Shown here: positions 14,968 through 31,880 of the stretch, piece after piece
Numbering within the stretch: position 1 is the stretch's first letter
Layout of the letters: every line of letters begins with the position of its first letter
Assembly: GCA_902768955.1 (NCBI GenBank)
Contig: CACXNH010000006.1
Coordinates: forward strand, 1-47,622
Reading direction: 5' to 3'
DNA from: an uncultured Bacteroidia bacterium
GTDB lineage: Bacteria; Bacteroidota; Bacteroidia; Bacteroidales; UBA932
DNA: 47,622 nt
Position numbers and translations under genes: made by a program
The notes under the pieces: model-generated
What the model saw: the letters and a program-made list of their open reading frames with translations, nothing else
Told to the model about the DNA's origin: nothing
Database searches by the model: none

Positions 14968-16269
14968 ATGAAGAAGCGCGAACAATTTACCAGCAGGTTA
15001 GCTGTAGTGATGGCCATGGCAGGATCCGCCATCGGCCTTGGAAACATTTGGAGATTTCCTTATCTGGTGGGCCAAAACGGAGGTGCGGCCTTTATCCTTT
15101 TGTATATCATTTCCGGGGCACTCCTTGCCATCCCCGTTTTCCTGGCAGAATGCGTGATTGGACGGCGTGGAGGAAACAGCACCTTCGGAGCTATGAGAAA
15201 ACTGGCTCCCGGCAGCCATTATCGCTGGGCCGGCTTGATAACTGTGATCACGCCGCTTCTCCTTCTGAGTTTCTACAGCGTGGTGGGCGGCTGGTCCGTG
15301 GATTACCTCCTGAAAGCGTGTATGCTACGCTTTACCCAGGACTCAACCGGCTTGTTCGAAGGCCTTCTTTCATCTACCTGGGAGCCTATTTTCATGCACA
15401 CAACCTTCATGATAGGCACCGCAATAGTCATCCTGCTTGGCGTAAAGAAAGGCATTGAGCGTTTCACAAAAGTGACTATGCCGCTGCTGTTCATACTTAT
15501 AGTTATAATAGTGGCGTACGGCCTTACTCTCCCCGGGGCCGGAAAGGGCGTAGAATACCTTATAAAGCCTGATTTCTCCAAGATTACCCCCTCGGTCATA
15601 ACGTCGGCCATGGGGCAGGCGTTCTTCTCCATGTCCCTTGGTGTAGGCACCATCCTCACATACGCCTCCTATGTTTCCAAGGATGAAAACCTGATGGTGT
15701 CGGCAGGCGGAACTGCAGTCTTCGACCTCCTGTTTGCACTCCTGGCCGGTTTTGCCGTCATGCCCGCCGTATTTGCGGCAGGTATCCAGCCCGGACAGGG
15801 GCCCGGCCTTATCTTTGACACCCTGCCATACATCTTCTCGCAGATGACTCCCTGGGTTGGAGCCGTGATATCCATTCTTTTCTTCCTGTCAGTACTTGTA
15901 GCCGCCCTCACCTCTTCTATTTCACTGCTTGAGGTGGGCGTTGCCTATTTTGTAGAGGAAAAAGGGGTAAGCAGGACAAAGGCAACCATTGGCCTTGCGG
16001 CTCTGGTCTGGGCCATTGGTGTCTTGTGCTCGCTATACGGCGGTTTCTTCGACTTCCTGGACCACCTCTGCTCAGACTGGCTCATGCCGTTCGGAGGCGT
16101 TCTCTTTGCAATGTTTGTGGGTTGGAAGATGTCAAAGCCAGATGTCCGCGACGAACTTACCAACGCCGGCACCCACAACCGCATGCTGTTTAACGTGGTG
16201 TATTTCCTTATCCGTTACGTTGCCCCCGTGGGCGTTCTGGGAATCTTCCTCACTATCCTTCTTGGCTAG
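14968..16269 (+). CDS. Sodium-dependent transporter, NSS/SNF family
   Basis: GSAIGLGNIWRFPY, NGGAAF, GQAFFSMSLG, GPGLIF and AALTSSISLLE motifs. Confidence 0.95.
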   Translation: MKKREQFTSRLAVVMAMAGSAIGLGNIWRFPYLVGQNGGAAFILLYIISGALLAIPVFLAECVIGRRGGNSTFGAMRKLAPGSHYRWAGLITVITPLLLLSFYSVVGGWSVDYLLKACMLRFTQDSTGLFEGLLSSTWEPIFMHTTFMIGTAIVILLGVKKGIERFTKVTMPLLFILIVIIVAYGLTLPGAGKGVEYLIKPDFSKITPSVITSAMGQAFFSMSLGVGTILTYASYVSKDENLMVSAGGTAVFDLLFALLAGFAVMPAVFAAGIQPGQGPGLIFDTLPYIFSQMTPWVGAVISILFFLSVLVAALTSSISLLEVGVAYFVEEKGVSRTKATIGLAALVWAIGVLCSLYGGFFDFLDHLCSDWLMPFGGVLFAMFVGWKMSKPDVRDELTNAGTHNRMLFNVVYFLIRYVAPVGVLGIFLTILLG

Positions 16270-22172: not shown

Positions 22173-23126
22173 ATGAAAACACTGATTATTGCTCTTATTC
22201 TTATTTCAGGAACCCAAGTTAAGGACTCCCTTAACGTAATGTTCTGGAACCTGGAGAACTTCTTTGACTATAGAAACGACTCCACAAGCGTCTCTGACGC
22301 CGATTTCTCTCCCCGGGGCTCCCGCCGCTGGACCAAAAAGCGCTTCTACGCCAAGTGTAACGCGGTGGCTAAAGGAATACTGTGGATATCGGCCTTGAAA
22401 GGCGCGGTGCCGGATGTCATAGGCTTTGCGGAAATTGAAAATTCTTTTGTCCTGCGGCGGCTGGTCCAGGCCACGGTCCTAAGAAAACTGGATTACAGGA
22501 TCATACACTTTGACTCTCCGGACCGCCGCGGGATAGACGTTGCGCTTCTGTATCGAGGTTTAAAACCGCTGGACTCGCACCCCGCCCATCTCTTTAATGC
22601 CGATTCCACCGTAATGCCCACCAGGGACATCCTGGTTGCCACTTTTATCGGCCAAGAAGGAGATACCATAGCGCTGCTGGTGAACCACCATCCGTCAAAA
22701 TTTGGCGGGGCGGCAGCGTCTGAGACACGGAGGAACATTGCCGTGGAACGTTTGAGACAGTTGGCCGATTCCCTGCAAACGCTTGGAATCCAAAATATTA
22801 TAGCAATGGGAGATTTCAACGATACTCCCGCAAATCCGGTGTTCCACAAACTAGAACCCGTCCTGTGGAACAAGGCAGAGCGGTTCTATAAAAGGGGTGA
22901 CGGCACCATAAAATATGCAGGCAAATGGGAACTGATAGATATGTTCTTTACATCCCCTGCCATAAATAATGCAGAAATGGACATAATATATATCCCATTT
23001 CTGCAAACTCATGACAAAGCGGCTACCGGCACTAAACCCCTGCGCACATATTCCGGACCAAGATACCTTGGAGGGGTATCGGACCACTGCCCCATATGGC
23101 TGAGTGTGAACTCAGACGTTAAATAA
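22173..23126 (+). CDS. Endonuclease/exonuclease/phosphatase family protein
   Basis: FWNLENFFD, EIEN, DRRGIDVALLY, NHHPS, MGDFND and SDHCPI motifs. Confidence 0.92.
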   Translation: MKTLIIALILISGTQVKDSLNVMFWNLENFFDYRNDSTSVSDADFSPRGSRRWTKKRFYAKCNAVAKGILWISALKGAVPDVIGFAEIENSFVLRRLVQATVLRKLDYRIIHFDSPDRRGIDVALLYRGLKPLDSHPAHLFNADSTVMPTRDILVATFIGQEGDTIALLVNHHPSKFGGAAASETRRNIAVERLRQLADSLQTLGIQNIIAMGDFNDTPANPVFHKLEPVLWNKAERFYKRGDGTIKYAGKWELIDMFFTSPAINNAEMDIIYIPFLQTHDKAATGTKPLRTYSGPRYLGGVSDHCPIWLSVNSDVK

Positions 23127-23132
23127 AAAGTG
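23116..23132. repeat. att core, left copy (displaced ychF 3' end)
   Basis: Identical to 30781-30797; the minus strand reads HFLFNV-stop, as at the end of ychF. Confidence 0.92.
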
Positions 23133-23175
23133 TATATTTACCCCTTTTTGCCCTTGATTATCAATCATATAGCGC

Positions 23176-23212
23176 GTAACAAAATTAAACGAGTAACAAA
23201 CGGGTAACAAAA
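23176..23212. repeat. GTAACAAA repeats, probable integrase arm-type sites (left)
   Basis: Three GTAACAAA copies; the 26-mer 23187-23212 matches 30632-30657 at 25/26. Confidence 0.7.
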
Positions 23213-23216
23213 GCAC

Positions 23217-23292
23217 CAAAAAACCGCCTGGAAATTTTGGAGGGTGTAACAAGTTAGGCAAGGCCCAAAACTCCAATTCCTGGCGGCTTTCT
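23217..23292 (-). ncRNA. Candidate ~75-nt hairpin sRNA
   Basis: TACCTTTG -7 element (23294-23301) directly upstream; stem GCCGCC.GGAATT.GGAG pairing with CUCC..AUUUCC.GGCGGU, followed by a U-run. Confidence 0.5.
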
Positions 23293-23326
23293 GCAAAGGT
23301 AGGAAAATTTTTCAATCCGGCAAGCG

Positions 23327-23608
23327 CTATTTGTCCGTTAGTGGTGTAAATACGTGGCTGCTCACTCCGAAAATATCCCAGTAGGGTATTAGTTCGCTGT
23401 AATCCCCCCGCGTTACTATAAGCCCGGCGGCGGTTTCCTCATAGCTGGGCGCCAGCTGGCCGCCGGGGTCTGCCTGGGCTATGATAATACGGCGGTGGCC
23501 GCGGGCCTCAATCTGAATAACTCCCCCTTTTTGCGGCTGGGCCGCCAGGCGCTCTTTTAGTTTGTCCGCCAGGGTTTCAAAGGTAATACCAAAGGAAAAA
23601 CTTGTCAT
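23327..23608 (-). CDS. Hypothetical protein (93 aa)
   Basis: Abuts the upstream ORF; element-like codon usage. Confidence 0.65.
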   Translation of the reverse strand: MTSFSFGITFETLADKLKERLAAQPQKGGVIQIEARGHRRIIIAQADPGGQLAPSYEETAAGLIVTRGDYSELIPYWDIFGVSSHVFTPLTDK

Positions 23609-23609
23609 A

Positions 23610-24083
23610 CTATACGGGTGTTTCGCGGTTGCAGTAGTGGGCTATTTCCGGGTTATCCTGGCCCGGCGCATCCTGCCGGGGCGTCGGCAGGGAGTAAATA
23701 GCGGTAATTTCGGAGTATTCAATATAAACGCTCCCAGCGCCTGGCCGCGTAATTGTTACCCCGTTTTCGCCAGCTTCGTAACGGCTGCCGCTATCTGCTG
23801 CATACTGGGCATATTCGCTTACGGAGGGCTGCGTAACGTCATACCTTTTTATTTCCAGGCACTGCGTCCAGGTGTGGGAGCCGTTTATAAACTCCCCCTG
23901 GCGCGTTTTCGCAACCTCTATAAATACCTGGAAATAGTGCTGGCCCGGAAAAGGCCAGGTGCCGGGCTGCCGCTGCAAGTAGGCTATCAGGCCGGGGCCT
24001 GCATCCATTAGTACGCCTTGATCGGTAACGCGGTACCAGTCGCTGGCGTTTTTAAGATAGGCTATAAATTGTTCCCGTGTCAT
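23610..24083 (-). CDS. Hypothetical protein (157 aa)
   Basis: ATG 4 nt after the stop of the upstream ORF; operonic arrangement. Confidence 0.65.
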   Translation of the reverse strand: MTREQFIAYLKNASDWYRVTDQGVLMDAGPGLIAYLQRQPGTWPFPGQHYFQVFIEVAKTRQGEFINGSHTWTQCLEIKRYDVTQPSVSEYAQYAADSGSRYEAGENGVTITRPGAGSVYIEYSEITAIYSLPTPRQDAPGQDNPEIAHYCNRETPV

Positions 24084-24087
24084 AGCT

Positions 24088-25017
24088 TTAGCCCTCCACA
24101 ATGATAGCCGGGTAAACCTTTAAGCCGCTTTGGCGCCCGTTTACTACTTGGCCGCCGCCCTGGGCGTTACGATCCCCGGCCAGGCCGCTCGTAATTGCAA
24201 AGAGTTCCGCGGGGCTAATAGTGTGCAGCCCGGCCAGGTTGTAAAACTTGGGCGCTGCGTCCTGGGTGCGGTCAAAATAGGAAATCAGCGCGCGGGCGGT
24301 GGCATCCTGGGCGGTTAGCGAAATTGTGCCGCTGGGTGCCAGCCCAAAGCCCGCGGGATCATAAGCCGCGCTGCAATCCTCCAGGGCTGCGCGGTGCTGC
24401 TTTGCGGGCAAGCTGGCGCAAGTGGCCTTAAAGGCGGCTTGCAGTTCCAGGGCGGCGCGCTGCATCCGTTCCAGGTTAGCAATAAAGGCGGCTTGCTCTT
24501 TGGTTTCCGCGTAAAGGGTGCAAAAGTCCTCCAGGCGGGCGGCGGCATCCTGGGCGGGCGCTGCCTCCCCGTCTTTGCCTATCACGATAAGCCCGGCGCG
24601 CAAATAGTCCCTTTCTATCGCAAAGGTTAAAACGGCGTTTACCTCTTTGCGGCATTGGAGTTCTACAAACTTGCGGTTTAGCTTGGCGTCATCGGAAAGG
24701 TTCGCCAGGGGGTGCCTATTTTCCAAAGACTGGGTTTCCACGTACCCCCGCGTTTTTTCGTTCCAGCCTGGGCCGCAATCCAGCCCGGCTTTTTTGGCTG
24801 CCGCGTTTAGGATCATATCCGCCAACAGCTGGCGCAAAGGGTACCCAGGGCGCGCGCCGCAACTCATAAGCGCCCAAAGGAAAGGCACCCCAAAGGTAAT
24901 TTGCGGCGCGGCTGCTTTTACGATCTTGCCCAGGGCCGTAACACGGGCGGCGGCATCGGAAAGGCCAGCGGCCAGGGCCTGGCGCTTTGCCTCCAAAACA
25001 AATACTTTTTCTTTCAT
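24088..25017 (-). CDS. Hypothetical alanine-rich helical protein (~309 aa)
   Basis: Long ORF with element-like codon usage; alternative start at 25050. Confidence 0.7.
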   Translation of the reverse strand: MKEKVFVLEAKRQALAAGLSDAAARVTALGKIVKAAAPQITFGVPFLWALMSCGARPGYPLRQLLADMILNAAAKKAGLDCGPGWNEKTRGYVETQSLENRHPLANLSDDAKLNRKFVELQCRKEVNAVLTFAIERDYLRAGLIVIGKDGEAAPAQDAAARLEDFCTLYAETKEQAAFIANLERMQRAALELQAAFKATCASLPAKQHRAALEDCSAAYDPAGFGLAPSGTISLTAQDATARALISYFDRTQDAAPKFYNLAGLHTISPAELFAITSGLAGDRNAQGGGQVVNGRQSGLKVYPAIIVEG

Positions 25018-25168
25018 ATTTTCGCGTTTTTTAGTTGTTTTTTCGTTCATTTTGGGCCAAAAAAGGCCAAAGTTCCGCAAATCCGAAAATTTGCTTTCAG
25101 TCGTTCAAGACTGGGGGCGAGGTTTAACGAGGGGGTACCCCCTTTAAAAAAATACCCCCCCGGCATCG

Positions 25169-25306
25169 TTACTTACTTATCCCCTGGCGCCTGGCACGTT
25201 TGGCCGCTGCTTTCTGCTTTCGCTCTGCCTCCCGGTGTCTGCGCTCTGCTTTATACTTGTAATCCTGGCGGGACTGGTTGGCCGCTTTGTAGGCTGGCTT
25301 TCTCAT
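25169..25306 (-). CDS. 45-aa highly basic peptide (not in the ORF track)
   Basis: MRKPAYKAANQSRQDYKYKAERRHREAERKQKAAAKRARRQGISK; ATGA overlap with the upstream stop. Confidence 0.5.
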   Translation of the reverse strand: MRKPAYKAANQSRQDYKYKAERRHREAERKQKAAAKRARRQGISK

Positions 25307-25557
25307 TTCCCAGCGCCTCCCGCCGCCTTGCGCATTTCCCTAACCTGGGCCGCGGCCCGTTCCTGGGTGCTGCGCTGCCGCCTGGGCTTTGTCCCGGTGG
25401 CCTGGCGCATTTCCGCCAGCTGGTTAGCGCGGCGGCGTTCCCGGTACGCGCGGGCATCCTCCGGGCTGGCCGGGTTAAAGTAGTGTACTTTGGTGCCGTC
25501 CGCGCCTACAATTTCCCGCAAATAGCGGGTTTCCTTTTCGCTGCGTTTGTGTGTCAT
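25303..25557 (-). CDS. Hypothetical basic protein (84 aa)
   Basis: ATGA translational coupling at both ends. Confidence 0.6.
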   Translation of the reverse strand: MTHKRSEKETRYLREIVGADGTKVHYFNPASPEDARAYRERRRANQLAEMRQATGTKPRRQRSTQERAAAQVREMRKAAGGAGK

Positions 25558-25853
25558 AGTTCGTTACGTTTTTCGTTGGCTCTTATAGCGGCCCTTTGCT
25601 GTGCTGGGTTGGCCGCGTCCCAGTCTATTAGATCGTTAAACATTTCGGCTATTTCCGCCGCTATCGTGGTGGGCTGGCGGGCCAGCTGCTGGGCGTTCAT
25701 TTGGCGCGCTGCTGCGTACTGGGCTACTTGGGTAAGCAAGGCACGGGCAAAGGCGCAAACGTTCTTAAATCCGCCAGCCTGGGCCAGCTGTTCCGCCCTG
25801 GCGTAATCCTCCGCGGCCAGGGTTATATTTATGCGGTGGCGTTCCTTTCTCAT
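25554..25853 (-). CDS. Ribbon-helix-helix-like DNA-binding protein
   Basis: RINITL..EDY...EQLA...GFKNVCAFARALL strand-helix-helix pattern; coupled to the primase stop. Confidence 0.55.
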   Translation of the reverse strand: MRKERHRINITLAAEDYARAEQLAQAGGFKNVCAFARALLTQVAQYAAARQMNAQQLARQPTTIAAEIAEMFNDLIDWDAANPAQQRAAIRANEKRNEL

Positions 25854-26773
25854 AGGCCCAAATTGTCGAAATCGTGCTTTCCTATTTCCTGGCGGGCTAT
25901 GTAAAAGAAAGTCCCTATTTGGGCCGGGGCGTCTGCTGGGTGCCGTAATAGGCTGGTAAATTTGGCGTCCGTTTCCGCGGGCTGGTAGCCGCTATAAAGG
26001 GCGCTAATTCGGTGGGCGTAATCCCGGCCAGCCTCCCCAAACGTTGAGGCCAGGGCCGCAAGTATTCGCATCCAGTCCGCGTAATTGGCCGTAATATCCC
26101 AGCGGTTGGCCTCACAAGATTTTATAACGGCCTCCACCTTTGCTGCGGTTTCGCTGGCGTCCAGATCGCGGCCCAGGGTTTCGCGGGTTGCGTGTTCACG
26201 TTCCGGCAAGGTCAGCGCCCAGGGCTGGGCCGCTGTGTTAATATACGGGTCTGCATCCCAGGAAACAAAACGTTTGCGGGTTACGTCCTTGCAGGCCGGG
26301 TCAAGTTCCAGCCCGGCGCGCTCAAAGTGATACGCCAGGGCGCGGAAATATTCGCGGTGTTTGGCCGGGTCTGCTATCGGCACAATAACCACGTACCCGG
26401 AGCCGCCGCAAGAGTGGCCGCAATAGGCTACGTTTGGCACGGCGCTAATAGCTGCCTTTAGATCATACCCGGCCAGCGCCGTATTTATCCCCTTTTCCGG
26501 CTTGTAGTCTATATCCAGGGAAATAAAACCACTATGCCGCACAAGGCCAGCGCGGGAAACGTGCGTAAAAGTCCCGCTGGGAGTAAAGCACGGCAAGGCG
26601 GCTTTTAGGGCCTTGCGTTTGGCCGGGTCTTTCTCTGCCCTTACGGCCTCAACCTGGGCGCGCCAGGTGTCCGCAATCAGCGCCCGGCCCAGGCTTATAT
26701 TTTCTATTTCGCTATCGTCTGCGTTCACGCAAGGGAGTAACGAAATTTTGGCTTTAAATAGGCTTGCTTTCAT
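25850..26773 (-). CDS. BT4734/VirE-N-like primase domain plus PriCT-2 domain
   Basis: LK..LPCFTPSGTF, HSGFISLDID, S..G.G, D.ACKDVTR.RFVSWD; C-terminal Y.DW.RI..ALA..FGE.GR...H.IS and IGTFF. Confidence 0.85.
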   Translation of the reverse strand: MKASLFKAKISLLPCVNADDSEIENISLGRALIADTWRAQVEAVRAEKDPAKRKALKAALPCFTPSGTFTHVSRAGLVRHSGFISLDIDYKPEKGINTALAGYDLKAAISAVPNVAYCGHSCGGSGYVVIVPIADPAKHREYFRALAYHFERAGLELDPACKDVTRKRFVSWDADPYINTAAQPWALTLPEREHATRETLGRDLDASETAAKVEAVIKSCEANRWDITANYADWMRILAALASTFGEAGRDYAHRISALYSGYQPAETDAKFTSLLRHPADAPAQIGTFFYIARQEIGKHDFDNLGL

Positions 26774-26915
26774 AATATCCGTATATCCGTAAAATATCCG
26801 TAAAATATCCGTACGTACGCCCTTTTAATATATCCGTAAATCCCCGTATATATACCCCTTTAGGGGTATACGGGTTTTTACGGGTATTTATATATCATCT
26901 TCGGGCATATCCGTA
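26774..26915. repeat. Iteron-like repeats plus palindrome, probable replication origin of the element
   Basis: ATATCCGTA six times (26775, 26783, 26794, 26805, 26830, 26907) and palindrome TATACCCCT-TT-AGGGGTATA (26851-26870). Confidence 0.72.
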
Positions 26916-27919
26916 ACCGGGAAAAGGTAACTATAAAAAACCTTGCGGCCCTCTTTGGATTTAAAGAGTACGCCCGCCAGGGCGGCGGCCCTTATATCCT
27001 TTTCCGCCTTGCTTTCTTCGCATCCCTGGGCCTGGCAATATGCCTCTATAAGTTCGCCCTTTGTCTTGCGGTCTGCATCCTGGAAAAGCGGGGCAAAGCG
27101 GCTGCGCGTTTCCTCCAGGGCGCGGCCCTCTGCCTCCGCCGCTGGCGCTATCTTGAAATCATCCGCAAACGAGAAAGAGAAAGGCGGCACGGGGGCAAAG
27201 CGGCTAAAGGGCTGCGTTACTTTGGCGGTGCCCGTTCCCTCCATTTTATCCACCTGGTAAATTTCGGCGCTCTTTTGCACCATAATAGCGCCCAGGTGGC
27301 CGCGGGCCTCATTGTCTTTTTTGTTTACGTGTATTAGTCCCAGGATCGCGGCGCCGTACTTTTCCGCGTGGGCCTCCAGCTGCCGCACCACGTCCCGGCT
27401 TTTTTCCTCATCGTTAAACGCCTGGCACAAATCTACTACCCCGTCAAGAAAAACGAAATCCGCCGCGTTTTCCTCTATCGCTTGCAGGGTGGCGGCCAGG
27501 GCATCCGCCGGGCCTCCAAAGCCGCGCAAGGTTACTATTTTAAGCCGTTCCGGCTGGGTGTCAAGTCCGGCCATAGACAGCACGGCCCGCGCCTTTTTGC
27601 GCAAGGTGTTTTTATCTTGTTCCGTGTCTATCCACAAAACGGCCAAATCCTGGCGGCTGGCGGTTATGCCTATAAACTGGCCCTTTAGTGCTGCTACGAT
27701 CAGCGCCAGGCCCGCCGCGCTTTTTCCGGCTTTCTTGGTGCCTTGCAGGGTGTGGAGGTTGGCCCGCGCTATTAGGCCGTATTCGCCGCCCAGGGTAAAT
27801 AAAAAGTCTATCGGCGCATCCTCCCCGGTAACGTCAAGATACGGCACGGCGCGCCCGGTTTCCTGGGCTGCGTCTTGCCTGGGCCAGCGGCTAAAATCTA
27901 TTTTCCGTTCCTGGCTCAT
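26888..27919 (-). CDS. AAA family ATPase (RepA/AAA_25 helicase-like)
   Basis: GTKKAGKS Walker A, WIDTEQ, FLDGVVD Walker B, IHVNK, RGHLG; probable C-terminal winged helix. Confidence 0.85.
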   Translation of the reverse strand: MSQERKIDFSRWPRQDAAQETGRAVPYLDVTGEDAPIDFLFTLGGEYGLIARANLHTLQGTKKAGKSAAGLALIVAALKGQFIGITASRQDLAVLWIDTEQDKNTLRKKARAVLSMAGLDTQPERLKIVTLRGFGGPADALAATLQAIEENAADFVFLDGVVDLCQAFNDEEKSRDVVRQLEAHAEKYGAAILGLIHVNKKDNEARGHLGAIMVQKSAEIYQVDKMEGTGTAKVTQPFSRFAPVPPFSFSFADDFKIAPAAEAEGRALEETRSRFAPLFQDADRKTKGELIEAYCQAQGCEESKAEKDIRAAALAGVLFKSKEGRKVFYSYLFPVTDMPEDDI

Positions 27920-28227
27920 TATCGCAAAGGTTTAGCGGCGCAATACGCGGCGGCGCTGGCCGCTGCCTCCGCCTGGGTGGGTACGGCTTGCAGCCTGGCG
28001 GCGCGCCAGGTTTCCAGGGCTGCGCGGTCAAACATAATAAGCCGCCCGCCGTACTTGTAAAAGGGTATCTGCCTGGAGCTGGTAAGTTTGTAAAGGTAGC
28101 TTTTCTTAAAGCCCAGGAAACGGGCCGCCGCCTCCAGGTCTATAAGATCATTTGCCGCCAGCTGGCCCGGCTGGGTAATAACGGCCTGGCGCAAGGTTTC
28201 GCCGCCGTGTGGGTTTTCGTGCTGCAT
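27919..28227 (-). CDS. HTH_17 excisionase/AlpA-like DNA-binding protein
   Basis: LEAAARFLGFKKSYLYKLTS.RQIPFYK.GGR..F....LETW pattern. Confidence 0.88.
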   Translation of the reverse strand: MQHENPHGGETLRQAVITQPGQLAANDLIDLEAAARFLGFKKSYLYKLTSSRQIPFYKYGGRLIMFDRAALETWRAARLQAVPTQAEAAASAAAYCAAKPLR

Positions 28228-28264
28228 ACTGCTACTATTTTGGTTTTACATTTGTACTTTCAAT

Positions 28265-28346
28265 AAAAAGCCCGCACCCCAGGAAAAGAAGAAAAGCGCA
28301 AGCGGCGCGGGCTGCAAAGCTTTTCAGTAATGCAAGGGCAAATTTA
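28265..28346 (-). promoter_or_regulatory. Promoter with a leader terminator-like hairpin upstream of the xis-replication operon
   Basis: TAAATTTG (28339-28346), then AGCCCGCGCC...GGTGCGGGCT-TTTT on the minus strand. Confidence 0.55.
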
Positions 28347-28453
28347 AAGGCAAAAACCAAAATAAAGTAAAGAATATCAAATAGTTAGCCCCTACAAAAG
28401 TGGGCTTTCCACAAATGTAGGGGCGTAAGGGGTCAGCGGGTGGCCGCTGGCGG

Positions 28454-28612
28454 TTACTGCTGGGCTGCGAAATAGTCCTTTAGGCCGTTAAGCCCTTGCA
28501 GGGTTTCGCGCATCGTGGCCGCTGGCGTGGCATCCGTCCAGCTCTTTAAAAGTAGGTCAATAGCATTTGCGCAAACGTTCTGCGCGTCCTGGAAAAATTC
28601 TTTGTCTTGCAT
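28454..28612 (-). CDS. 52-aa small protein (not in the ORF track)
   Basis: MQDKEFFQDAQNVCANAIDLLLKSWTDATPAATMRETLQGLNGLKDYFAAQQ; starts 12 nt after the upstream stop. Confidence 0.55.
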   Translation of the reverse strand: MQDKEFFQDAQNVCANAIDLLLKSWTDATPAATMRETLQGLNGLKDYFAAQQ

Positions 28613-28624
28613 AACTTGTTACGT

Positions 28625-29398
28625 TTATAGGGTGTTAAAAATAAGGTCTATTTGGGTGTCAAATTTGGCCTCCAGGGGGTGCGTTTTTGCGGATTGTACC
28701 ACGTTTAGCCGGGTGCGATCATCTACGCCAAAGGCCAGGCAAAGCGCCCGCGTATAAGGCTGTTTGCGTTTCCTGGGTAATAGGTCTATAAGGCGGGCCA
28801 GCTGGGCGGGCGTCCCGTCCCAGGAAAGGGCCTTTTCCGGGCGTTTCGCCGCCGGGGTGGACTGCTGGGCCAGGTAATACGCGAAAGTGTCCCAGGGGCC
28901 GGAAATTAGGCCCGCACTGGTTAGCGCCGTGTAAAGCCGCCGCGCGGTTTTTTCCTCCAGGCGTTCCGCTGCTGGTAGTGCTGCAATCTTGCCCGCTTTC
29001 AGCGCGTCCAGCTCTGCCGCCAGCTGGCCCGGCATCCCCTGGCGTTTTAAGGCCGAAATTTCGCCCCCGGAAAGAGTAAGGCCCGCTGCTGCGGTTTCCT
29101 GGCAGATCGCGCAAAATAGGGCATCCAGGGCGGCAATACGGGCGGCCAGGGGGGCGCGCCGCTGCTGGGTGTTTGCCTCCAGTTCCGCCAGGGCCTCCGG
29201 GCTGGGCGCCGGGCCGATCCCTGCGAAATCCTGGGCCGGGCTGGTTATCGTTTCCAGTTCCGCGGCCAGGGCGTTACGTTCCGCCAGGATCGCGGCAAGT
29301 TTCGCCAGGATCGCGGCGCGGGTTTCGGCTTTGGTGCCGTATTCAAAGCGGGCGCCCTCAACAAAGGCGGCGGCCTGGGCTGTAATACTGCGTTTCAT
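28625..29398 (-). CDS. Hypothetical protein coupled to the integrase (257 aa)
   Basis: TAATG overlap with the integrase stop gives the start MKRSITAQ; coiled-coil-like N-terminal half. Confidence 0.7.
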   Translation of the reverse strand: MKRSITAQAAAFVEGARFEYGTKAETRAAILAKLAAILAERNALAAELETITSPAQDFAGIGPAPSPEALAELEANTQQRRAPLAARIAALDALFCAICQETAAAGLTLSGGEISALKRQGMPGQLAAELDALKAGKIAALPAAERLEEKTARRLYTALTSAGLISGPWDTFAYYLAQQSTPAAKRPEKALSWDGTPAQLARLIDLLPRKRKQPYTRALCLAFGVDDRTRLNVVQSAKTHPLEAKFDTQIDLIFNTL

Positions 29399-30582
29399 TA
29401 GTCCAAAATTCCGTTTAAGAGGTTGGCCGCTGCTTGCTTGCGTTGGTCTATGATCGTGGCGTAAATCTGCGTTGTGCTTACGTTGGTGTGTCCTAATAGC
29501 TTGGAAATGCTGTAAAGGTCTGCGCCCTGGGTAAGCGCCAGGGTGGCGAAAGTGTGGCGGGCACAATGAAAGGAAATGTTTTTAGCGATCCCGGCGCGTT
29601 TTACCCAGGTAGTAACGCCCCATTGGGTTGTTACCCGTTTCGGCAAGGTAAATACTAAATCCTCCGGCCCTTTGGTGCCGCGTTCCGGCAAAAAGCGGCG
29701 GGCGGCATCGGAAAGGGGTAAATACAAAATTTGCCGGGTTTTCTGCATCCTGGTTTCTACTTGCCAGGTGTCCCCGTTTTGGTGTATATCCCCCCAGGTT
29801 AGGCCCTCAATATCGGAAAGGCGCAAGCCGCAAAAGCAAGAGAAAAGGAAAGCGGCTTTTACTTGTTCGTTTGGTGCCGGGGCCGCCGCCAGGGTCTTTA
29901 ATTCCTCCGCGGTTAGATAGTCCCTTTCGCTGGGCTGGCCTTGCGGCTTTTCGCTAATATCCACCAGCGCGCAAGGGTTTACGGAAATAAGGCCCTTTTT
30001 GTATGCCTCATTCATAGCCGCCTCAAAGTTGGAGTAATAAAGCGCGGCTGTGTTTGGGGAAAGGGTGCCAGCTCCCCAGCGCTGCGGGGCGTCCTTTAGA
30101 TAGGCAGCAAAGCCCGTGCAAAAATCCTTATCCACCTGGGCCAGGGTAACGGCCCGGCCCTTGTAGGCTGTGTCTAAATAGTGCTGTAAGTGGGTGCGGG
30201 CGGTCTTTATCCCCTCCGCGGTGTTGCTGGCCTTGCGCCCGGCATCCTGGGCGGCCTTATCGGCCCGGTCTTGCCGCTGCTGCATCCAGTCCAAAAGTAG
30301 CAAGGCTTTCCCGGCCTGGTTTTTTATCCCGGCCTCCCCGTTTACTATTTCCTTAATCCGCTGGGCCTTTATCGCGTTGGCCGCGTCCCTGGTTACCTGG
30401 TTGGCGGTTTTATCCTCCGGGTGGTTGGGGCGCTCTGGGATTAGGTATAACTTTAGAAATTCATAGCTGCGCACCCCGTCCCGGTAAATATCCAGGTAAA
30501 TAGATTTGCTGCCTTTCGCCAGCTCTTTAAAACGGATTGTTACGGGTTCCTTTGCCCGCTGCTGCTTTTTCGGTCTTGCCAT
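29398..30582 (-). CDS. int: Tyrosine recombinase/integrase (Bacteroidales Arm-SAM-catalytic type)
   Basis: SIYLDIY..G.R.YEFLKLYL arm domain; catalytic GLRLSD, HCARHTFAT, LLGH and TTQIY. Confidence 0.96.
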   Translation of the reverse strand: MARPKKQQRAKEPVTIRFKELAKGSKSIYLDIYRDGVRSYEFLKLYLIPERPNHPEDKTANQVTRDAANAIKAQRIKEIVNGEAGIKNQAGKALLLLDWMQQRQDRADKAAQDAGRKASNTAEGIKTARTHLQHYLDTAYKGRAVTLAQVDKDFCTGFAAYLKDAPQRWGAGTLSPNTAALYYSNFEAAMNEAYKKGLISVNPCALVDISEKPQGQPSERDYLTAEELKTLAAAPAPNEQVKAAFLFSCFCGLRLSDIEGLTWGDIHQNGDTWQVETRMQKTRQILYLPLSDAARRFLPERGTKGPEDLVFTLPKRVTTQWGVTTWVKRAGIAKNISFHCARHTFATLALTQGADLYSISKLLGHTNVSTTQIYATIIDQRKQAAANLLNGILD

Positions 30583-30631
30583 AATAGAAATACTTAACTT
30601 GTTACGGGTACAAAGATAGGCAAAAAATCCG

Positions 30632-30675
30632 AAACGAGTAACAAACGAGTAACAAAATTTGCGAAAAGTAACAAA
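30632..30675. repeat. GTAACAAA repeats, probable integrase arm-type sites (right)
   Basis: Copies at 30638, 30649 and 30668. Confidence 0.7.
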
Positions 30676-30703
30676 AAGTGCGTTTAAGAAAGTCAAACAA
30701 AGG

Positions 30704-30731
30704 AAAAAGAAAAAGCGGCCTAAAAGCCGCT
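30704..30731 (-). terminator. Intrinsic terminator downstream of ychF, supplied by the element
   Basis: AGCGGC-N6-GCCGCT followed by TTTTCTTTTT on the minus strand. Confidence 0.6.
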
Positions 30732-30776
30732 AATTCAATGGATTATATTTTACTTACTTTTCCTTAATTTTACCCC

Positions 30777-31880
30777 TTAAACGTTAAATAAAAAGTGCAT
30801 TATGTCACCGTCCTGTACAACGTAGTCTTTGCCTTCGATGCCCATCTTTCCTGCAGCACGTACGGCTGCTTCAGTACGGTACTGCACAAAGTCTTCATAC
30901 TTGATAACCTCTGCACGGATGAAACCACGCTCGAAGTCCGTGTGGATGACTCCTGCGGCACGGGGAGCCTTGTCTCCGGCCCTGATGGTCCAGGCGCGGC
31001 ATTCATCGGCCCCGGCGGTAAAGAAGGTCCTGAGGCCAAGGAGTTTGTACGCTCCCTGGATAAGGCGCACTACGCCGGATTCTTCAAGGCCGAGTTCCTC
31101 AAGGAACATCTGGCGGTCCTCGTACTCTTCAATTTCCGCAATCTCGGCCTCCGTCTTGGCGGCAATCACAAGGACTTCCGCATTCTCAGAAGCCACTGCG
31201 GCACGCACTGCATCTACATAGGCATTACCGGATACGGCCGATGCCTCATCCACGTTACAAACATACATGACGGGCTTGTTGGTGATGAGAAAAAGGTCGT
31301 GGGACATCTGCTCCTCCTCTGCGTTTTCAAGCGCAACTGTGCGGCAGGAAAGGCCCTTAAGAAGAGCCTCACGGTACCTGAGGAGAAGCCCAAGAAGCTT
31401 TTTAGCCTCCTTGTCCCCTCCGGTAGTTGCCATCTTCTCCACCTTCTTGATACGGTTCTCTACGGTCTCAAGGTCCTTGATCTGGAGTTCCGTATCCACC
31501 ACTTCCTTGTCACGGACAGGGTCTACGGAACCGTCCACGTGAGCGATATTTCCGTCGTCAAAGCAGCGCAGAACATGAAGGATGGCATCCGTCTCGCGTA
31601 TATTTGCAAGGAACTGGTTGCCAAGGCCCTCTCCCCTGGAAGCGCCCTTTACAAGGCCTGCAATGTCCACTATCTCTACGGTAGCGGGCACGGTACGTTT
31701 GGGCTGGCAGATATCAGTAAGAACCTCCAGACGTTTGTCCGGCACGTTTGTAGAGCCCACATTGGGATCTATGGTGCAGAATGGATAGTTTGCGCTCTGG
31801 GCCTTTGAGGAACTCACGCAATTAAAAAGAGTAGACTTGCCCACATTGGGCAAGCCTACTATTCCACATTTCAGTGACAT
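30777..31880 (-). CDS. ychF: Redox-regulated ATPase YchF
   Basis: GIVGLPNVGKSTLFN, ANYPFCTI, DIAGLV, IHTDFERGFIRAE and YVVQDGD motifs. Confidence 0.98.
   Translation of the reverse strand: MSLKCGIVGLPNVGKSTLFNCVSSSKAQSANYPFCTIDPNVGSTNVPDKRLEVLTDICQPKRTVPATVEIVDIAGLVKGASRGEGLGNQFLANIRETDAILHVLRCFDDGNIAHVDGSVDPVRDKEVVDTELQIKDLETVENRIKKVEKMATTGGDKEAKKLLGLLLRYREALLKGLSCRTVALENAEEEQMSHDLFLITNKPVMYVCNVDEASAVSGNAYVDAVRAAVASENAEVLVIAAKTEAEIAEIEEYEDRQMFLEELGLEESGVVRLIQGAYKLLGLRTFFTAGADECRAWTIRAGDKAPRAAGVIHTDFERGFIRAEVIKYEDFVQYRTEAAVRAAGKMGIEGKDYVVQDGDIMHFLFNV
30781..30797. repeat. att core, right copy (within the ychF 3' end)
   Basis: Identical to 23116-23132. Confidence 0.92.

What the first reader, a model, noticed from the sequence alone, without database searches (positions are those of the whole stretch)
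23217..23301. Candidate trans-acting sRNA antisense to the start regions of the integrase and a 52-aa ORF
Seen: a promoter element, long hairpin and U-run on the minus strand, with loop sequence UUUUGGGCCUUGCCUAACUUGUUAC. It is complementary at 16/17 nt to GUAACAAGUUAUGCAAG spanning the AUG of the 52-aa ORF (28606-28622). It also pairs with the integrase mRNA in two blocks, 11/11 (30595-30605) and 12/14 (30567-30580), looping out 14 nt that include the AU of the start codon. Inference: one RNA represses two distant genes, acting as an RNA-based excision/immunity switch or a type I TA-like module; on the excised circle it would sit just upstream of int. Alternative: TAAC-N2-GTTA is a protein operator or arm-site variant present three times.
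Basis: partly seen in the sequence, partly recalled or inferred. Interest (0 to 1): 0.8.

Follow-up and report, generated by a model that had tools for sequence, protein, structure and literature searches.

The report
Far-end small RNA silencing an integrase
A small mobile element in gut Bacteroidales carries, at the end opposite its integrase gene, a predicted ~72-base hairpin RNA whose exposed loop changes letter for letter with the first bases of the integrase message across distant relatives, so it likely acts as an uncatalogued RNA brake that keeps the element integrated.

Summary
Observation confirmed, and the RNA reading is well supported. The hairpin (minus strand, about 23289-23218) has a consensus Bacteroidetes promoter and a U-run. 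It lies at the far end of a 7.7-kb satellite-like element inserted in the 3' end of ychF. All 23 complete elements with integrases 60-100% identical carry it, and three more (38-45%) carry an analogous RNA. Its accessible 9-12-nt seed pairs with the first bases of the element's own integrase mRNA. The seed covaries with that leader across 7 seed classes (cognate assignment ranks 1 of 5040), includes G-U pairs, and changes independently of the arm-type repeats, which rules against the DNA-site alternative. A second block pairs at or just after the AUG and covaries less. The 52-aa ORF is a plausible but optional second target; a type I toxin-antitoxin reading is not supported. Rumen RNA contigs stop just short of the promoter, but they give no strand. 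Best reading: a trans-encoded antisense RNA that represses integrase translation, working like IS10 RNA-OUT but not cis-encoded. No Rfam match, and no description was found in 10 literature searches. Repression itself is untested.

The parts
23218..23289 (-). Predicted ~72-nt small RNA: outer terminator stem, inner hairpin, 11-nt bulge, U-run. The start is inferred from -7 element geometry.
   Evidence: promoter geometry from PMC6847099
23294..23323 (-). Bacteroidetes sigma-A type promoter: -7 element 23294-23301, TTG at 23321-23323
   Evidence: a -7 element precedes the hairpin in all 24 loci tabulated
23246..23256 (-). Seed (block 1), complementary to the first ~11 nt of int mRNA and to the ORF52 start; 8 of its 11 nt lie in the unpaired bulge
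23257..23270 (-). Block 2, complementary (12/14) to int codons 1-6 just after the AU of AUG; folded into the weak inner hairpin
23174..23211 (.). Three direct repeats, probable integrase arm-type sites at the far end (role inferred)
23116..23132 (.). att core copy at the far end (the original last codons of ychF)
25850..26773 (-). Primase-like gene (BT4734-like_N + PriCT_2)
26888..27919 (-). AAA_25 helicase-like gene
27919..28227 (-). HTH_17 excisionase-like gene
28454..28612 (-). 52-aa ORF of unknown function; candidate second target
28606..28622 (-). Second complementary site, overlapping the ORF52 AUG (16/17)
28625..29398 (-). 257-aa ORF between int and ORF52; no family hit
29398..30582 (-). 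Tyrosine integrase, 394 aa (Arm-DNA-bind_5, SAM_5, Phage_integrase)
30567..30580 (-). Block-2 target in int mRNA
30595..30605 (-). Block-1 target: predicted nucleotides +2 to +12 of int mRNA
30611..30618 (-). -7 promoter element of int
30636..30675 (.). Three direct repeats, probable arm-type sites at the int end
30703..30730 (-). Element-supplied terminator-like hairpin and U-run after ychF; on the circle it lies between the RNA and int
30781..30797 (.). att core copy at the int end, within the last codons of ychF
30777..31880 (-). Host ychF gene, the integration target

Best explanation
The hairpin is likely the gene for a ~72-nt trans-encoded antisense RNA that would pair with the first bases and the start-codon region of the element's own integrase mRNA and so is predicted to hold integrase translation down. 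Shown: promoter, hairpin, U-run, position at the far att end, conservation in every complete relative examined, and covariation of the seed with the integrase leader. Inferred steps: (1) both promoters are host sigma-A type and largely constitutive. (2) The free 5' end of int mRNA meets the 11-nt bulge first, as RNA-IN meets RNA-OUT in IS10. (3) The weak inner hairpin then opens and block 2 pairs just after the AUG (over it in distant relatives), blocking 30S loading and probably promoting decay. (4) In a new host Int is made before the RNA accumulates; afterwards Int stays low and the element stays integrated. (5) In some lineages the same seed also covers the start of a small ORF upstream of xis.
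For: All 23 complete elements with int >=60% identical carry it, and the 10 loci without a hit end before the far att. Seed and leader covary: 7 seed classes, cognate assignment rank 1 of 5040; 13 pairs, 0 of 100000 permutations as good. With opening costs counted, 10 pairs give -6 to -11 kcal/mol, with 2 of 200000 permutations as good. Analogous RNAs with matched changes in both blocks occur beside integrases 38-45% identical (L034, L272, L274); L272 and L274 were found by a promoter-plus-hairpin scan and then ranked by complementarity. G-U pairs occur in trans duplexes (L024, L034, and L027's second site). Stem covariation: 11 of 19 pairs change on both sides, 0 of 500 shuffles, and all slid controls are lower on cells paired and on covariation score. 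The promoter-side strand is the more stable one in 18 of 20 sequences. The target starts at predicted +1/+2 of int mRNA. RNA contigs from 6 of 7 RNA runs laid end at 23267-23284 and none crosses the promoter, while a probable DNA run continues.
Against: No stranded reads, no transcript ends and no functional data. The RNA contigs run past the U-run toward att and host DNA, so they show read-through or host-side transcripts rather than a discrete 72-mer. Net binding for the window's own pair is modest (-6.2 kcal/mol), and a pseudoknot-free cofold gives 0 for it. Block 2 covaries weakly (3726 of 100000 permutations) and is poorly matched in L029-L031. Kin are not independent, so the permutation counts overstate. 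Most RNAs of the close clade were first located using complementarity, then recovered by the covariance model at the syntenic place. No such RNA was found near the abundant MPRVKK-type integrases (42-46%) within the DNA held.
Confidence: 0.72

Rival explanations
1. The far-end promoter is a Pcirc-type promoter. After excision it reads through att toward int, and the hairpin acts in cis on that long transcript as an attenuator or by intramolecular pairing with the int leader.
For: It points toward int on the circle, about 375 nt upstream (L012). RNA contigs extend past the U-run. Precedent exists in ICEclc and ICEKp1 (PMC13023037, Discussion read).
Against: int has its own conserved -7 element, and the target begins at that mRNA's first bases. 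In ychF-type elements a second terminator-like hairpin lies between the att core and int. This reading does not explain the ORF52 and L027 second sites. It can coexist with the best reading.
Confidence: 0.1
2. The RNA is real but activates or stabilises int mRNA, by shielding its 5' end or by opening a weak leader hairpin that hides the AUG.
For: The best-conserved pairing is at the extreme 5' end. The window's leader can fold its first bases onto the AUG region (about -3 kcal/mol). In the close clade most of the AUG is looped out.
Against: Block 2 pairs right after the AUG in the close clade and across it in L034, L272 and L274. The second sites overlap start codons. The leader hairpin is not predicted in L027 or L029.
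Confidence: 0.08
3. The hairpin is only a terminator or insulator at the element's end, and its loop is a relic of duplication or gene conversion from the int start.
For: On the plus strand the loop reads like the int start with 14 nt deleted. In the window a host gene converges on the hairpin, and unstranded contigs would fit host transcripts ending there.
Against: A promoter is conserved immediately upstream in 24 of 24 loci tabulated. The match is kept and updated across 38-100% integrase identity, with G-U rather than identical letters in several cases. The plus strand folds poorly and lacks a U-run.
Confidence: 0.06
4. The three copies are DNA binding sites (an operator or an arm-site variant) for Int, Xis or another protein.
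For: The motif shares a 7-mer with the arm-type repeats and is a near-palindrome in the window. One copy overlaps the int start point.
Against: In L006 and L015 the arm repeats changed while seed and leader did not; in L027 and L029-L031 the arm repeats are canonical while seed and leader changed together. The palindrome is lost in L005, L007, L022, L027 and L029. G-U pairs make no sense for DNA.
Confidence: 0.04

Closest known systems
IS10 RNA-OUT / RNA-IN (PMC4513863, Introduction passages read)
   Same: A stem-loop antisense RNA of a mobile element; pairing starts at the 5' end of the recombinase mRNA and blocks 30S binding; it acts in trans on all copies.
   Different: RNA-OUT is cis-encoded on the opposite strand, forms 35 bp and targets a transposase. 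Here the RNA gene is 7.3 kb away at the other att end, pairs imperfectly in two blocks and targets a tyrosine integrase.
IS200 art200 / tnpA (PMC4513863, abstract and passages)
   Same: An element-encoded sRNA that represses recombinase translation through a few accessible loop nucleotides.
   Different: art200 is cis-encoded with 90 nt of perfect complementarity, and its target has a Shine-Dalgarno sequence.
P4 CI RNA and P1/P7 C4 RNA (recalled; search gave no paper describing them that I read)
   Same: Trans-acting satellite or phage RNAs with two exposed segments that pair with two leader sequences to give RNA-based immunity (recalled).
   Different: As recalled, they are processed from the operon they control and act on lytic or antirepressor operons, not on int. 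No Rfam family matched here.
Bacteroides RteR of CTnDOT and GibS (passages in PMC7366714, and PMC13750123; the RteR paper was not held)
   Same: Trans-encoded Bacteroidota sRNAs. RteR belongs to a mobile element; GibS pairs over start codons, in a genus lacking an obvious Hfq.
   Different: RteR acts on the tra operon and GibS on metabolic genes. Neither is described in those passages as acting on an integrase, and there is no Rfam match.
Pcirc of ICEclc / P3'end of ICEKp1 (PMC13023037, Discussion read)
   Same: A promoter at the far end that comes to lie upstream of int on the circle.
   Different: Those promoters transcribe int. This one is followed by a terminator-like hairpin that carries an anti-int seed, and int has its own promoter.
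PICI/PICMI-like phage satellites (search listing and abstract starts)
   Same: Gene order int, xis-like HTH, helicase and primase in 7-10 kb; the relative L029 has two small-terminase genes.
   Different: No repressor, capsid or terminase family hit in the window's element; the helper is unknown.

Membership tests
Cis-encoded antisense RNAs of transposases (RNA-OUT, art200) | Encoded on the strand opposite its target, with perfect complementarity | tested here: not met
   The gene lies 7.3 kb from int on the same strand; pairing is 11/11 plus 12/14 with a 14-nt loop-out
Cis-encoded antisense RNAs of transposases (RNA-OUT, art200) | An exposed loop pairs with the 5' end or leader of the recombinase mRNA | tested here: met
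   In silico only: accessible seed, target at +1/+2, covarying
Cis-encoded antisense RNAs of transposases (RNA-OUT, art200) | Blocks 30S binding and lowers mobility | not testable with these tools
   Needs toeprint, reporter and excision assays
Trans-encoded base-pairing sRNA | Own promoter and intrinsic terminator, non-coding | tested here: met
   The reading frame across it is broken in L004, L005, L017, L022 and others
Trans-encoded base-pairing sRNA | Short imperfect pairing conserved by compensatory change | tested here: met
   Block 1 strong, block 2 weak
Trans-encoded base-pairing sRNA | A discrete transcript is detected | tested here: inconclusive
   Unstranded RNA contigs stop near the predicted start but run past the U-run
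Any Rfam 15 family (including C4 and Bacteroides families) | Covariance-model score above the gathering threshold | tested here: not met
   0 hits in the window; no hit over the hairpin up to E 10
Type I toxin-antitoxin | Small, usually hydrophobic toxic peptide | tested here: not met
   ORF52 has charged residues throughout, with a longest uncharged run of about 9 aa (sequence); no Pfam hit; Atlas hits only 0.76. Toxicity itself was not tested.
Type I toxin-antitoxin | Toxin and antitoxin co-occur | tested here: not met
   12 of 23 RNA-bearing elements have no ORF52 homologue by tblastn
Integrase arm-type site or operator | The motif tracks the arm repeats or keeps its palindrome | tested here: not met
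   Double dissociation: L006 and L015 versus L027 and L029-L031
PICI-like satellite | int, excisionase/AlpA-like and primase-helicase module between att sites | tested here: met
PICI-like satellite | Induction and packaging by a helper phage; terS or capsid genes | tested here: inconclusive
   None detected in the window's element; Terminase_4 hits in the relative L029; helper dependence not testable

The most novel reading that the evidence does not exclude
These Bacteroidales satellites have replaced a protein repressor with an RNA one. A far-end sRNA reads the first ~11 bases of integrase mRNA, and the co-evolving seed/leader alleles form RNA-encoded immunity groups: a resident blocks integration of incoming elements with the same seed but not of those with another. 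In some lineages the same seed also silences a small gene upstream of xis.
Probability: 0.35. Interest if true: 0.8.

Novelty: new variant of a known kind. Interest (0 to 1): 0.62.

Why it matters
If true, it adds a trans-encoded RNA to the known ways of controlling a tyrosine integrase, and a new sRNA family to a phylum where few sRNAs have a known target and no obvious Hfq exists. The natural series of matched seed/leader alleles is a ready-made set of compensatory mutants, so the mechanism, the specificity groups and chaperone-free pairing at an mRNA's free 5' end can be tested directly. It could also supply compact, partly orthogonal riboregulators for Bacteroides genetics.

Tried and rejected
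Rfam: no family. ARAGORN: nothing. Own genome: no second copy of the RNA or the integrase.

Viral collection: the integrase alone gave no loci. The alignment gave 65 loci, almost all 25-47% identical; no full-length model hit lay among those searched. A loop pattern gave 100 stretches; the 80 listed loci held no family member by the model.

Order-wide model search: of 151 genomes only the own genome had a true hit. The other 8 were 32-34-nt terminator-like hits or, for L161, an unrelated sequence. Two pattern searches for the distant clade returned 0, but the pattern asked for one T too many and missed even the known G344 copy, so they say nothing about absence.

A reading frame through the hairpin that ends at the att site is not conserved. 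A homology between ORF52 and L027's 90-aa target ORF was not supported (probability 0.1%). The Atlas gave only sub-threshold hits for ORF52 and no answer for the 309-aa ORF, whose 30 homologues are unnamed. L115 and L121 have a similar leader but no convincing RNA in 9.6-11 kb. The pseudoknot-free cofold cannot represent binding inside a closed stem and gave 0 for the window pair, so it was replaced by an opening-energy calculation. Lack of RNA cover elsewhere in the element was not used as evidence.

Three papers I wanted were not held. My recollection that BatR is a transposon-antisense RNA was not borne out: the listing ties it to bile susceptibility.

Full report
Context. The finding lies at one end of a 7.7-kb integrated element (about 23116-30797, genes on the minus strand). 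A 17-nt direct repeat at 23116-23132 and 30781-30797 duplicates the last codons of ychF. From the int end the element encodes a tyrosine integrase with an arm-binding domain, a 257-aa ORF, the 52-aa ORF, an HTH_17 excisionase-like protein, an AAA_25 protein, a BT4734-like/PriCT_2 primase and several unnamed ORFs. No repressor, relaxase, capsid or terminase family scored among the 11-12 element ORFs scanned; a MobC-like hit was sub-threshold. Relatives are titled Bacteroidales or Bacteroidia metagenome-assembled genomes. One relative (L029) has two small-terminase genes, so the class looks like a phage satellite (inference). Three direct repeats flank each att copy and are probably arm-type sites (inference from the Arm-DNA-bind_5 domain; the general description of arm sites is from passages of PMC2817482).

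Observation. The minus strand folds at z -4.26, the plus strand at z -1.38. The 11-mer shared by loop, int leader and ORF52 start occurs 3 times in the 2.01-Mb assembly, all in this element. Both the hairpin and int are preceded by TAnnTTTG, the Bacteroidetes -7 consensus. By the numbering in PMC6847099 (passages; last G = -5), the RNA would start near 23289 and int mRNA near 30606, so block 1 is complementary to about nucleotides +2 to +12 of the message.

Conservation. Integrase searches gave 11 genome loci, the best 80 of 531 metagenome hits and 65 viral loci. A covariance model built from 18 hairpins was run on the window and 99 of the 156 loci then held from those searches. It scored 50-89 bits at the far att end of 23 elements with integrases 60-100% identical; 18 of these were in the training set. 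The 10 other loci of that clade end before the far att, so the count is 23 of 23 complete elements. In the alignment, 11 of 19 predicted pairs have two-sided changes; 0 of 500 shuffles reach the observed values, and slid controls are lower on cells paired and on covariation score. The structure was derived from these sequences, which favours it. The promoter-side strand is the more stable one in 18 of 20 distinct sequences. L012 holds the attP junction, with the RNA about 375 nt upstream of int.

Covariation with the target, the key test. Where the int leader changes, the seed changes with it: L007, L015, the L005/L016/L022 group, L027 and L029-L031 each have their own matched pair of 9-11 bp. 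For 13 pairs the cognate mean for block 1 is -14.4 kcal/mol against -8.9 for permutations (0 of 100000). Collapsed to 7 seed classes, the cognate assignment ranks 1 of 5040. With opening costs counted, cognate binding is -6 to -11 kcal/mol for 10 pairs, with 2 of 200000 permutations as good. These counts overstate significance because kin are not independent (tree) and because complementarity helped locate most RNAs. Position, promoter and structure are independent criteria that all agree.

Distant relatives. Three distant cases strengthen the point. L034 (45% identity) and two elements of genome G344 (L272, 45%; L274, 38%) have a promoter, a long hairpin and a U-run. Each has 11-12 bp to the mRNA 5' end and a second block of 13-14 bp across the AUG that differs between them in step with the leaders. 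Model R1 did not detect L034, so homology between the two groups of RNAs is inferred from architecture only. Against this: block 2 covaries weakly in the close clade (3726 of 100000) and is poorly matched in L029-L031. The window's RNA is predicted to bind the L005 leader better than its own through block 2, so specificity groups would not be clean. No such RNA was seen near the common MPRVKK-type integrases within the 10-19 kb held (part's output was cut).

DNA or RNA? In L006 and L015 the arm repeats changed while seed and leader did not. In L027 and L029-L031 the arm repeats stayed canonical while seed and leader changed together. The palindrome is lost in five seed classes. G-U pairs occur in trans duplexes of L024, L034 and L027. 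All three points favour RNA pairing.

Second target. ORF52 homologues were found in 12 loci; 11 keep a 10-11-nt seed match directly before the AUG while the flanks diverge, and L027 does not. Those 11 share essentially one seed and represent only a few lineages, so they give no covariation. L027 instead has a 13-bp match with two G-U pairs across the AUG of another small ORF upstream of xis (-21.6 kcal/mol; best of 813 host start regions -14.2). Of 17 elements tested, 6 have a second start-codon site stronger than all 813 host controls, L017 and L024 have a weaker one at the primase, and 9 have none of note. Each element offered 8-21 ORF starts. Twelve of 23 RNA-bearing elements lack ORF52. 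So the second target is plausible and optional. ORF52 has no membrane-like stretch and no family hit above noise, and its 8 homologues are unnamed. A type I toxin-antitoxin module is not supported.

Expression. Seven gut or rumen RNA runs and one probable DNA run were laid, out of 21 listed. All 7 RNA runs had a contig between the far att and the hairpin. Six end at 23267-23284 (two of them with an 8-9-nt variant tail) and one ends at 23204. None crosses the promoter, whereas the probable DNA run spans 23116-23532. X2 and X3 gave identical tables and X4 and X7 share a flank, so the independent number is about five. The runs were chosen for holding part of 23120-24120, depths are 3-10, contigs have no strand, and all extend beyond the U-run. 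This is a weak hint of transcription starting at the promoter with some read-through. It also fits host transcripts ending at the hairpin.

Mechanism. Most likely (0.72) a constitutive RNA captures the free 5' end of int mRNA in its bulge, opens its inner hairpin and pairs at the start codon, blocking initiation. Bacteroidetes initiation depends on an unstructured, A-rich start region rather than a Shine-Dalgarno sequence (PMC6847099, abstract and passages). A free 5' end would avoid the topological problem of pairing inside a closed stem (inference), as described for IS10 RNA-IN and RNA-OUT (PMC4513863, passages). The predicted consequence is a burst of Int on entry, low Int afterwards, and inhibition of related incoming elements. 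Rivals: a Pcirc-type cis role (0.10), activation or stabilisation (0.08), a terminator with a relic loop (0.06), a DNA site (0.04).

Comparison and novelty. It works like RNA-OUT and art200 but fails their defining cis-encoded feature. It resembles P4 CI and P1 C4 RNAs in being a two-segment trans RNA of a satellite (recalled, not read). Rfam has no match. Ten full-text searches (listings and abstract starts seen) gave no description of it. Term look-ups in three Bacteroides sRNA papers (PMC10994844, PMC13750123, PMC7366714; passages only) found no mention of integrase. The library lacks most subscription papers, three wanted papers were not held, and I did not read supplementary sRNA tables, where an unnamed member could be listed. 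Verdict: a real, conserved RNA gene candidate with strong comparative support for its target; new variant of a known kind; interest 0.62.

Noticed in passing
window 30703-30730: The element supplies a terminator-like hairpin right after the ychF stop. It is conserved in ychF-inserted relatives and would insulate int from host read-through, and on the circle from the far-end promoter.
   Followed up: partly
L006 and L015, both att ends: The arm-type repeats changed coordinately at both ends, together with N-terminal integrase changes: a natural pair for mapping arm-binding specificity.
   Followed up: partly
L007 (att near 15910), L017 (near 8815), L029-L031: Close relatives use attachment sites other than ychF despite 60-83% integrase identity.
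   Followed up: no
L022 17047-17119 and L023 17037-17109: A second weak model hit (28 bits) about 160 nt upstream of the RNA; possibly a diverged tandem copy.
   Followed up: no
window 26828-26889: An inverted repeat with short direct repeats between the helicase and primase genes; a candidate replication origin (it gave only chance-level miRNA hits).
   Followed up: no
window 28376-28426 and 28247-28346: Two TAnnTTTG elements and a hairpin between ORF52 and xis suggest separate control of the xis-replication operon.
   Followed up: no
window 24088-25017: A 309-aa ORF with 30 unnamed homologues and no Pfam or PHROG hit; the last genes of the element vary in order and content among relatives.
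   Followed up: partly
L029 6652-7616: Two tandem small-terminase genes and a VapE-like replication protein in a 10-kb relative, supporting a satellite lifestyle for the family.
   Followed up: partly
L017 6940-6970 and the matching place in L024: A 10/11 match to the seed directly before the primase start codon: a possible alternative second target.
   Followed up: partly
L046, L058, L061, L083 (about 270-620 nt upstream of int, minus strand): MPRVKK-type elements have a promoter-plus-long-hairpin unit on the opposite strand upstream of int, with no clear match to the int leader.
   Followed up: no
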